64,000 nucleotides of DNA, taken from positions 85,064,001-85,128,000 of the forward strand of contig OX597817.1 of NCBI GenBank assembly GCA_951406725.2, written 5' to 3'. Made by a program: the position numbers and the translations under genes. Below are positions 5,401-5,526 of the stretch, piece after piece. The notes under the pieces were generated by a model. The model searched no databases. It saw nothing but the letters and a program-made list of their open reading frames with translations, and was not told the DNA's origin. The stretch is from Octopus vulgaris (lineage: Eukaryota). How positions within the stretch are numbered: position 1 is the first letter of the stretch; each line of letters begins with the position of its first letter.

Positions 5401-5526
5401 TACAAACTCTCTCTTAGATCAGTGGCCAGCCACGGCAAACTGGACTTAGAGAGGGTAGCAACAAGGCGGTGCCCCAGCATGGCCTCAGCCGGATGGCTGA
5501 AACAAAAAAAGAGTAAAAAAGAGAAT
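2409..5526 (+). mobile_element. CR1/L2-group LINE, subfamily A1, near-complete ORF2 plus 3' UTR, 5'-truncated
   Basis: APE motifs [31 protein letters not shown] motifs [40 protein letters not shown]. 3' hairpin tail, and (TA)n on both sides. Confidence 0.95.
2424..5449 (+). pseudogene. LINE ORF2 (APE endonuclease + reverse transcriptase) split by two +1 frameshifts
   Basis: ORFs 2424-2717, 2629-3516 and 3734-5449 are collinear with the intact 32048-35092 protein. Both breaks fall in T6 runs (2659-2664, 3509-3514). Confidence 0.88.

What the first reader, a model, noticed from the sequence alone, without database searches (positions are those of the whole stretch)
5464..5526. Conserved 3' double hairpin with compensatory changes shared by four LINE subfamilies and the main SINE
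Seen: every LINE 3' end has GGCG-GTGC-loop-GCAT-G-GCC (stem 1), then a 5-bp stem with a 4-nt loop, then (G)AAAC. Stem 2 changes sequence but keeps pairing: CAGCC-GGAT-GGCTG (5487), CAGCC-GGTT-GGCTG (40300 minus), CAGCT-CATA-AGCTG (27987; 37010 minus), CAGCT-AATA-AGCTG (22958), CAGCT-CGTG-AGCTG (39490 minus), GGCC-TTCG-GGCT (22102), GGCCA-ATAC-TGGCC (19986, divergent subfamily B), and CAGTC-AAAT-GACTG in S1 SINEs (15280, 51176, 54930, 62700). Established: CR1/L2-group 'stringent' LINE reverse transcriptases recognise a 3' stem-loop, and partner SINEs borrow it. Inference: this is the RT recognition element of a LINE-SINE system, and its covariation is readable inside this one window.
Basis: partly seen in the sequence, partly recalled or inferred. 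Interest (0 to 1): 0.78.

Follow-up and report, generated by a model that had tools for sequence, protein, structure and literature searches.

The report
Twin-hairpin copying signal of octopod retroelements
Several families of jumping genes in this octopus-like genome, and a very abundant short parasite element, all end in the same sequence, predicted to fold into two RNA hairpins that are likely the handle their copying enzyme grabs; the principle is well known, but this two-hairpin form and the habit of most of these families of sitting inside TA repeats were not found in the papers searched.

Summary
The motif is a 39-nt 3' tail of APE+RT LINEs (CR1 group): stem 1 (GGY-G-G...U-G-GCC, with a G.G mismatch beside a G.U pair), one linker base, stem 2, AAAC, then a family-specific repeat. 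A tRNA-type SINE (at least 105,688 tails genome-wide) carries it. Its identity to LINE family A1 starts at the base of stem 1 (46/52, against 15/60 upstream).

Inside the window only stem 2 covaries, and weakly. Four more LINE families found outside the window, and relatives from other organisms, add covariation in stem 1. Across 11 lineages 69 of 77 cells pair, against 50.3 in shuffles (not tree-corrected). Among SINE copies there is no covariation or pairing bias, as expected of dead copies, so the proposed copy-level R-scape test would mislead.

Recognition by the reverse transcriptase is inferred (0.8), not shown. The principle, compensatory changes included, is published for bivalve CR1/SINE pairs, whose tails differ in sequence.

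Extra finding: young A and B families sit in (TA)n arrays (3' side 79/87, 5' side 34/53; background 5-7%). Family C (6/30, 1/14) does not, and the SINE only partly (10/30). Verdict: new variant of a known kind.

The parts
5465..5484 (+). Stem 1 of the A1 tail: 3 bp, G.G mismatch, G.U plus 3 bp, CCCA loop
5486..5499 (+). Stem 2 of the A1 tail: CAGCC / GGAT / GGCTG
5500..5525 (+). AAAC, then the A1 terminal repeat (about AAAAGAGT), also carried by SINE S1
5526..5700 (.). (TA)n array on the 3' side of the A1 insertion; a TA array also lies at its 5' end near 2400
2415..5449 (+). LINE family A1, 5'-truncated ORF2 (APE+RT), frame broken near 3510-3535
1..1251 (-). Second A1 copy; its 3' end and tail lie just left of the window (L031)
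17409..20004 (+). LINE family B1 (about 41% aa to A3); tail motif 19957-20004, repeat TTCTAAGTTA, in TA array
21076..22118 (+). LINE family A2 fragment; tail motif 22080-22118, repeat TTTAAGGA, in TA array
22943..22975 (+). Very short A3 3' fragment (damaged tail) between TA arrays
27465..28003 (+). A3 fragment; tail motif 27966-28003, repeat AATC
32048..35092 (+). Open ORF2 of family A3 (ATG at 32048; APE + RT); copy is 5'-truncated about 55 nt upstream, no ORF1
35119..35157 (+). A3 tail of the open-ORF2 copy (U.G in stem 2, GAAC instead of AAAC)
37006..37044 (-). A3 tail
39486..39524 (-). A3b tail (loop CGTG)
40301..40339 (-). A1 tail (loop GGTT)
14909..15315 (+). SINE S1: tRNA-like head with A/B-box-like motifs (read by eye), body, tail motif 15260-15297
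51140..51560 (-). SINE S1, tail motif 51172-51210
54909..54947 (+). SINE S1 tail
62679..62717 (+). SINE S1 tail (another at 62804-62842, minus strand)
6435..6473 (+). Older SINE tail, decayed; duplicated at 13945-13983

Best explanation
This is the shared 3' end of a group of CR1-type LINEs and their SINE, predicted to fold into two RNA hairpins that the LINE's ORF2 protein likely binds to pick its template for target-primed reverse transcription. Shown: the tail ends the LINE families sampled. Stem 1's outer frame (GGY-GG ... TG-GCC) and the AAAC are constant, while the inner stem 1, stem 2, loop 2 and the terminal repeat change by family with pairing kept. The SINE carries only this unit plus A1's repeat. 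Inferred: the constant G.G/G.U element and AAAC are the general handle. It is probably read by a conserved Arg/Lys-rich motif in the EN-RT linker (IPRxRKxLMRRRxK, residues 384-397 of P0002), by analogy with the cTBR of zebrafish L2. The terminal repeat would anneal to the nicked target; in the young A and B families that target is mostly (TA)n.
For: ORF2 = APE + RT. Motif found at the ORF2 3' end: of 113 C-terminus matches (with overlapping loci not merged) 109 had the tail anchor; of the other 4, two matched further upstream in the ORF, one ran into a TA array and one had an interrupted tail. Family-level pairing: 69/77 cells, shuffle mean 50.3, sd 2.4, 0/20000. Family C was found by protein search alone and changes inner stem 1 from TGC/GCA to AGTC/GACT with pairing kept. 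B3 changes G-C to A-U in stem 2. Metagenome relatives L101 and L106 have the same frame with new inner stems (z -3.6 and -2.6); L102 and L103 also fold as double hairpins. All of these fall in one ORF2 clade (SH-aLRT 99). SINE vs A1: 46/52 identical over motif+tail, 15/60 upstream; the 13 tail bases match A1 fully, against 5-7/13 for A2, A3 and A4. All 6 SINE/A1 differences are in unpaired places or form one compensated pair. The basic linker motif is conserved in 117 ORF2s, with K/R in 79-95% at 7 positions. Precedent: stem-loop needed and bound by the EN-RT linker in ZfL2 (PMC4176376).
Against: No binding, probing or expression data. Among SINE copies there is no covariation: the compensated C-G variant is 3 of 100 listed among 1,224 left-C copies (about 37 estimated, about 18 expected by chance, not significant). 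Wobble against broken variants go opposite ways at two pairs (1,548 vs about 1,190; 2,296 vs 2,843). The test ignores the tree and sets the register from anchors. It leaves out A3b, L102, L103 and L130, which fail the strict anchors. Family C folds weakly (z -1.1) and L130 does not fold as predicted (z 0.1). The A-trained model finds C only at E 0.14 and L101 at E 1.6, and misses L106. SINE loop 2 (AAAT/TAAT) matches no sampled LINE. Young SINE copies sit in TA arrays less often (10/30) than A1 (32/37), so A1 may not be the only mobiliser.
Confidence: 0.8

Rival explanations
1. The hairpins are real RNA structure but serve 3'-end formation or stability of the transcript (termination, cleavage, protection from exonucleases), not template recognition by ORF2.
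For: These elements end in short repeats, not poly(A), so some 3'-end device is needed. Covariation shows structure, not its partner.
Against: A SINE with a Pol III-type head took exactly this unit from a LINE, which fits recognition in trans. In ZfL2 the stem-loop is the ORF2 binding site (PMC4176376). Rfam has no match at gathering scores.
Confidence: 0.1
2. Only the linear sequence (GGYGG, TGGCC, AAAC, terminal repeat) is selected; the pairing is inherited from a self-complementary ancestor and the apparent compensation is chance over a few lineages.
For: Within-window statistics are weak. Copy-level counts show no pairing bias. C and L130 fold poorly.
Against: Inner stem 1 has three different Watson-Crick types at each of two columns with 22/22 cells paired. 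Stem 2 columns 2-5 keep pairing in 41/44 cells with several pair types. The upstream UTR and loop 2 differ freely between families.
Confidence: 0.07
3. The element acts as a DNA hairpin, in the cDNA or at the insertion site (for example, helping insertion into TA cruciforms), rather than in RNA.
For: Strong association of A and B copies with (TA)n arrays.
Against: G.U/U.G pairs are constant or tolerated on the sense strand, which suits RNA. Family C has the motif but not the TA preference (6/30, 1/14).
Confidence: 0.03

Closest known systems
Zebrafish ZfL2-1/ZfL2-2 and eel UnaL2/UnaSINE stringent 3' stem-loop (PMC4176376; passages and section 19 read)
   Same: APE+RT LINE of the CR1/L2 group with a structured 3' tail followed by a short repeat; an irregularity in the stem matters (bulge in UnaL2); basic tail-binding region between EN and RT; tail shared with a SINE.
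   Different: In the passages read they have one stem-loop with a specificity loop. Here there are two hairpins, a constant G.G mismatch beside G.U in stem 1, a near-constant loop 1 in the A families and a free loop 2. The linker motif is IPRxRKxLMRRR rather than the PW...E..W type.
Bivalve CR1-14_CGi with BivaV-SINE2 and BivaCORE-SINE1 (PMC4824008; passages read) and CR1-Zenon partners (PMC11481361; passages and Suppl. Fig. 1 text read)
   Same: Mollusc CR1-group LINE/SINE shared tails with conserved stem loops and compensatory mutations: the same argument, already in print.
   Different: Their tail sequence (AT-rich) shares nothing visible with the GGYGG...TGGCC...AAAC frame. I could not see their structure figure.
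Octopus OR1/OR2 tRNA-derived CORE-SINEs (Ohshima and Okada 1994; seen only as cited in PMC4824008 and PMC5804259)
   Same: Octopus tRNA-derived, very abundant SINEs; tRNA-Core is a main octopus SINE class (PMC8967140, passages). S1 is probably one of them (my recall, not tested).
   Different: No OR1/OR2 sequence was available to compare. The retrieved rows of the SINE/LINE pair table in PMC3747384 show no octopus pair, and the word octopus does not occur in that text.
Target-specific non-LTR elements (Tx1, R1 and RLE clades; PMC4640811, passages read)
   Same: Insertion into a microsatellite.
   Different: That paper places most target-specific families in early-branched, Tx1 and R1 groups. 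Here the preference is in a CR1-group APE element, is strong but not absolute, and is absent in the related family C.

Membership tests
Stringent-type LINE 3' recognition tail | Structured tail at the 3' end of the LINE copies | tested here: met
Stringent-type LINE 3' recognition tail | Tail, and only the tail, shared with a partner SINE | tested here: met
   46/52 vs 15/60 upstream; no other SINE-LINE match in the window self-comparison
Stringent-type LINE 3' recognition tail | Short terminal repeat instead of poly(A) | tested here: met
   family-specific repeats
Stringent-type LINE 3' recognition tail | Tail needed for retrotransposition and bound by ORF2 | not testable with these tools
   needs an assay; a candidate basic linker motif is present
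Stringent-type LINE 3' recognition tail | Compensatory changes between families | tested here: met
   (69/77; not tree-corrected). Not seen among SINE copies
CR1 group non-LTR retrotransposons | ORF2 with APE endonuclease and RT | tested here: met
   Pfam PF14529/PF03372 + PF00078
CR1 clade proper (as against L2, Crack, Daphne, Kiri, CR1-Zenon) | RT phylogeny with named references | tested here: inconclusive
   own 28-row clade (SH-aLRT 99) apart from the clade with L113, which I take for a bird-type CR1 from recall; no named references in the tree; quick tree only
Bivalve CR1-14_CGi / CR1-Zenon tail type | Same tail sequence | tested here: not met
   compared by eye with the alignment text
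tRNA-derived CORE-SINE (OR1/OR2) | tRNA-derived head with A and B boxes | tested here: inconclusive
   box-like motifs by eye; ARAGORN and Rfam find nothing
tRNA-derived CORE-SINE (OR1/OR2) | CORE domain; identity to OR1/OR2 | not tested
   no reference sequence available
Microsatellite-targeting non-LTR elements | Target repeat on both sides of insertions | tested here: met
   A1, A2, A3, B1, B2: 3' 79/87, 5' 34/53; background 6.7% and 5.2%; C 6/30 and 1/14
Microsatellite-targeting non-LTR elements | Endonuclease cuts the repeat specifically | not testable with these tools
   needs a nicking assay or de novo insertions

The most novel reading that the evidence does not exclude
An unnamed CR1-group clade spread over invertebrates uses a two-hairpin RNA code: a constant G.G/G.U element read by an arginine-rich linker motif as the general handle, with stem 2 and the terminal repeat free to vary by family. 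Within it, octopod lineages A and B have a (TA)n-specific APE endonuclease, a target specificity not found for the CR1 group in the papers searched. One tail would then drive both a SINE with over 100,000 copies and the nesting of LINEs in TA arrays, and the pairs A/B against C give a natural experiment on RNA recognition and targeting.
Probability: 0.35. Interest if true: 0.62.

Novelty: new variant of a known kind. Interest (0 to 1): 0.42.

Why it matters
The principle is old. What this adds is a precise minimal signal (39 nt, bounded by the SINE/LINE junction) with natural compensatory variants across nine LINE families in one genome, several with open ORF2s. That makes tail recognition outside the fish L2 elements directly testable. 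It proposes A1 as the likely tail donor of one of the most abundant octopod SINEs. The (TA)n preference of A and B against C would be an unusual case of targeting in the CR1 group. It also warns that covariation tests on genomic copies of retroelements read decay, not selection.

Tried and rejected
- Direct-repeat finder swamped by TA arrays.
- Rfam and ARAGORN: nothing.
- MAFFT misaligns the divergent tails, so pairs were registered from sequence anchors.
- Copy-level covariation and wobble bias in the SINE: negative. An apparent A-to-G excess (5/100 listed) shrank to 1.3-fold on full counts and was mirrored by a G-to-A excess, so neither pairing selection nor RNA editing is claimed.
- A repeated GGTGGGAGAGGC...TGGCC string has no ORF2 upstream (0 of 4 loci checked) and looks like part of a terminal-inverted-repeat element; it was excluded.
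- Viral contigs: no relative. GTDB contigs: 2 weak hits, not used.
- Cluster look-up gave no useful names. The Atlas points to unnamed eukaryote clusters, Arthropoda commonest on very few records.
- The A-trained covariance model does not reach the metagenome tails significantly.
- The careful tree did not finish.
- No RNA-seq evidence was obtained, so expression is open.
- Earlier-findings look-ups were empty.
- Literature: nine searches showed no description of this tail or of TA targeting by octopus CR1. Repbase, Dfam, SINEBase, the 1994 octopus SINE paper, figures, and a .fa supplement of PMC11481361 could not be seen and may hold it.

Full report
Setting. The window is G000:C4:85064001-85128000 in a 2.8-Gb genome. 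The closest named ORF2 homolog is from Argonauta hians, 57%, so the host is likely an octopod (inference). The window is a nest of 5'-truncated LINEs inside (TA)n arrays, plus SINEs. The LINE ORF2 has APE and RT domains; 32048-35092 is open from an ATG. Window families by ORF2 are A1, A2, A3, A3b and the distant B1 (41% aa).

Observation. All listed strings are present. The unit is 39 nt: stem 1 (3 bp, G.G mismatch, G.U and 3 more bp, 4-nt loop), one linker base, stem 2 (5 bp, 4-nt loop), AAAC, then a family-specific repeat. RNAalifold predicts it unaided. Of 14 single copies folded, 13 give the two hairpins, 12 with z from -1.4 to -4.6 and family C at -1.1; L130 does not (z 0.1). Reversed patterns give 0 genome hits. 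Inside the window, covariation is limited to stem 2. In 10 distinct A/SINE rows, 2 of 12 pairs change on both sides, with 5-7 of 500 shuffles reaching the score or percent paired and 139 of 500 reaching the pair count. That alignment includes one row from outside the window (A4, L269). Pairwise simulations give p 0.02-0.17.

Beyond the window. Protein and DNA searches added families A4, B2, B3 and C. C was found without using the motif and has a new inner stem 1 (AGTC/GACT) inside the same GGY-GG...TG-GCC frame. Of 80 metagenome loci, 61 had an ORF stop with sequence behind it. A loose frame pattern matched 5 of 61: L101, L106 and L130, which are in the clade, and L131 and L170, which are outside it and do not fold as double hairpins. 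Of the 5 in-clade loci with a 3' end, L101 and L106 have the full frame and fold, L102 and L103 fold as double hairpins with a changed frame, and L130 has the frame but folds otherwise. A quick tree of 97 ORF2 rows puts A, B, C and these loci in one clade (SH-aLRT 99), apart from the clade that holds L113, which I take for a bird-type CR1 from recall. A, B and C are not sisters (careful search unfinished, midpoint root, no named references). ORF1 has weak PHD and CCCH matches below Pfam cut-offs, so the clade name stays open.

Covariation at the family level. Taking the most frequent tail of 11 lineages (A1, A2, A3, A4, S1, B1, B2, B3, C, L101, L106; A3b, L102, L103 and L130 were left out because they fail the strict anchors), 69 of 77 cells in 7 variable columns pair, against 50.3 +/- 2.4 in shuffles, 0 of 20,000. 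Five of the 8 failures are the outermost pair of stem 2. This test ignores relatedness and sets register from anchors, so it overstates significance. A covariance model trained on A/SINE copies finds B (E 0.0002 and 0.022), C weakly (0.14) and L101 at 1.6, and misses L106.

Copy level: negative. The SINE-type pattern has 105,688 exact hits. At stem-2 pair 4 there are 1,548 U.G copies and 1,224 copies with C on the left, 3 of the 100 listed being compensated: about 37 against about 18 expected, not significant. At pair 3 the breaking change (2,843) outnumbers the wobble change (2,296). Copies therefore vary without regard to pairing, as dead insertions should.

SINE partner. S1 has a tRNA-like head (by eye; no ARAGORN or Rfam hit). 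It matches A1 at 46 of 52 tail positions and 15 of 60 upstream, the match starting two bases before stem 1. The 13 bases after AAAC equal A1's (13/13; A2 6, A3 5, A4 7). The A1 lineage is the likely donor. Against an exclusive partnership: the SINE's loop 2 matches no sampled LINE, and young copies are in TA arrays in 10 of 30 cases (23 of 102 for all ages), against 32 of 37 for A1.

Target preference (not in the original finding). A TA array follows the tail in A1 32/37, A2 17/17, A3 7/9, B1 9/10, B2 14/14, B3 9/15 and A4 23/34, but in C only 6/30; random positions give 337/5000. At 5' junctions the counts are A1 17/25, A2 3/8, A3 3/4, B1 4/6 and B2 7/10 (34/53), C 1/14, background 521/10000. 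Copies running off a locus, reaching the reference's 5' end, under 90% identity or with N were dropped, and several remaining rows are alignment ends inside the element, so 34/53 is a floor. Samples were best hits or first hits, not random. TA on both sides argues against the tail seeding the array. Endonuclease specificity, use of breaks at TA arrays and selective retention are not separated. PMC4640811 (passages) places most target-specific families in early-branched, Tx1 and R1 groups.

Mechanism. Shown: anatomy, position, family-level conservation of pairing and the SINE junction. Inferred from the zebrafish L2 work (PMC4176376, passages and section 19): ORF2 binds the tail through the EN-RT linker. 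A basic motif there is conserved in 117 ORF2s. The constant G.G/G.U element may play the part of the UnaL2 bulge, and the terminal repeat likely primes at the nick. Confidence 0.8; rivals are 3'-end processing 0.1, sequence only 0.07 and DNA hairpin 0.03.

Prior art. Shared, structured, compensated tails are in print for bivalve CR1-14_CGi and two SINEs (PMC4824008, passages and a supplement term search) and for plant L1 (PMC3747384, passages). The bivalve tails differ in sequence (PMC11481361, passages and Suppl. Fig. 1 text). OR1/OR2 are named as octopus CORE-SINEs (PMC4824008; PMC5804259, passages); I saw no sequence of them. A recent octopus repeat annotation lists 13 active CR1 families and has no mention of tail, partner or hairpin (PMC13282606, part 1 of 3 and a term search). 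PMC4758252 and PMC8967140 were read as passages. Nine searches did not show this tail; Repbase-type records, figures and subscription papers were out of reach.

Verdict. A real, well-defined cis-element of a known kind, in a new two-hairpin variant, with an unusual TA-array preference in its A and B carriers. Interest 0.42.

Noticed in passing
window 2400-40340 and loci L001-L030, L201-L210, L271-L300: LINE families A1, A2, A3, B1 and B2 sit in (TA)n arrays on both sides, while related family C does not; possible microsatellite targeting by a CR1-group endonuclease.
   Followed up: partly
L185:176-1480 and L098:8184-9140 (minus): ORF1 differs between families: C has a PHD-like region plus repeated CCCH fingers; A1 has a Myb/SANT-like region and one CCCH finger (all below Pfam cut-offs).
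   Followed up: partly
P0002 residues 384-397 (window about 33050-33091): Arg/Lys-rich motif IPRxRKxLMRRRxK conserved in the EN-RT linker of 117 ORF2s; candidate tail-binding region.
   Followed up: partly
P0005, P0006 (metagenome proteins): ORF2s 63-68% identical to the octopod A families and nested among them in the tree; either cephalopod DNA in those samples or horizontal transfer.
   Followed up: no
L181-L210: Many copies of families C and A2 have stop-free ORF2s and are 97-100% alike, so several families are probably active.
   Followed up: no
window 5706-14341: Local duplications (5706-6832 with 13210-14341; 7651-8620 with 10485-11455; a 107-bp tandem unit near 6560-7049) that carry an old SINE twice.
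   Followed up: no
L215, L218, L220, L238 near 1500: A repeated non-LINE element with GGTGGGAGAGGC...TGGCC and apparent terminal inverted repeats matches the loose tail pattern by chance.
   Followed up: partly
L279 near 1470-1500 (minus); L284, L288: Some very short B2 copies show duplicated 5' pieces or are joined directly to the opposite strand of LINE sequence, as in twin-priming-type junctions.
   Followed up: no
window 61077-61242 and 61533-61700: An inverted repeat of about 165 bp at 86% identity.
   Followed up: no
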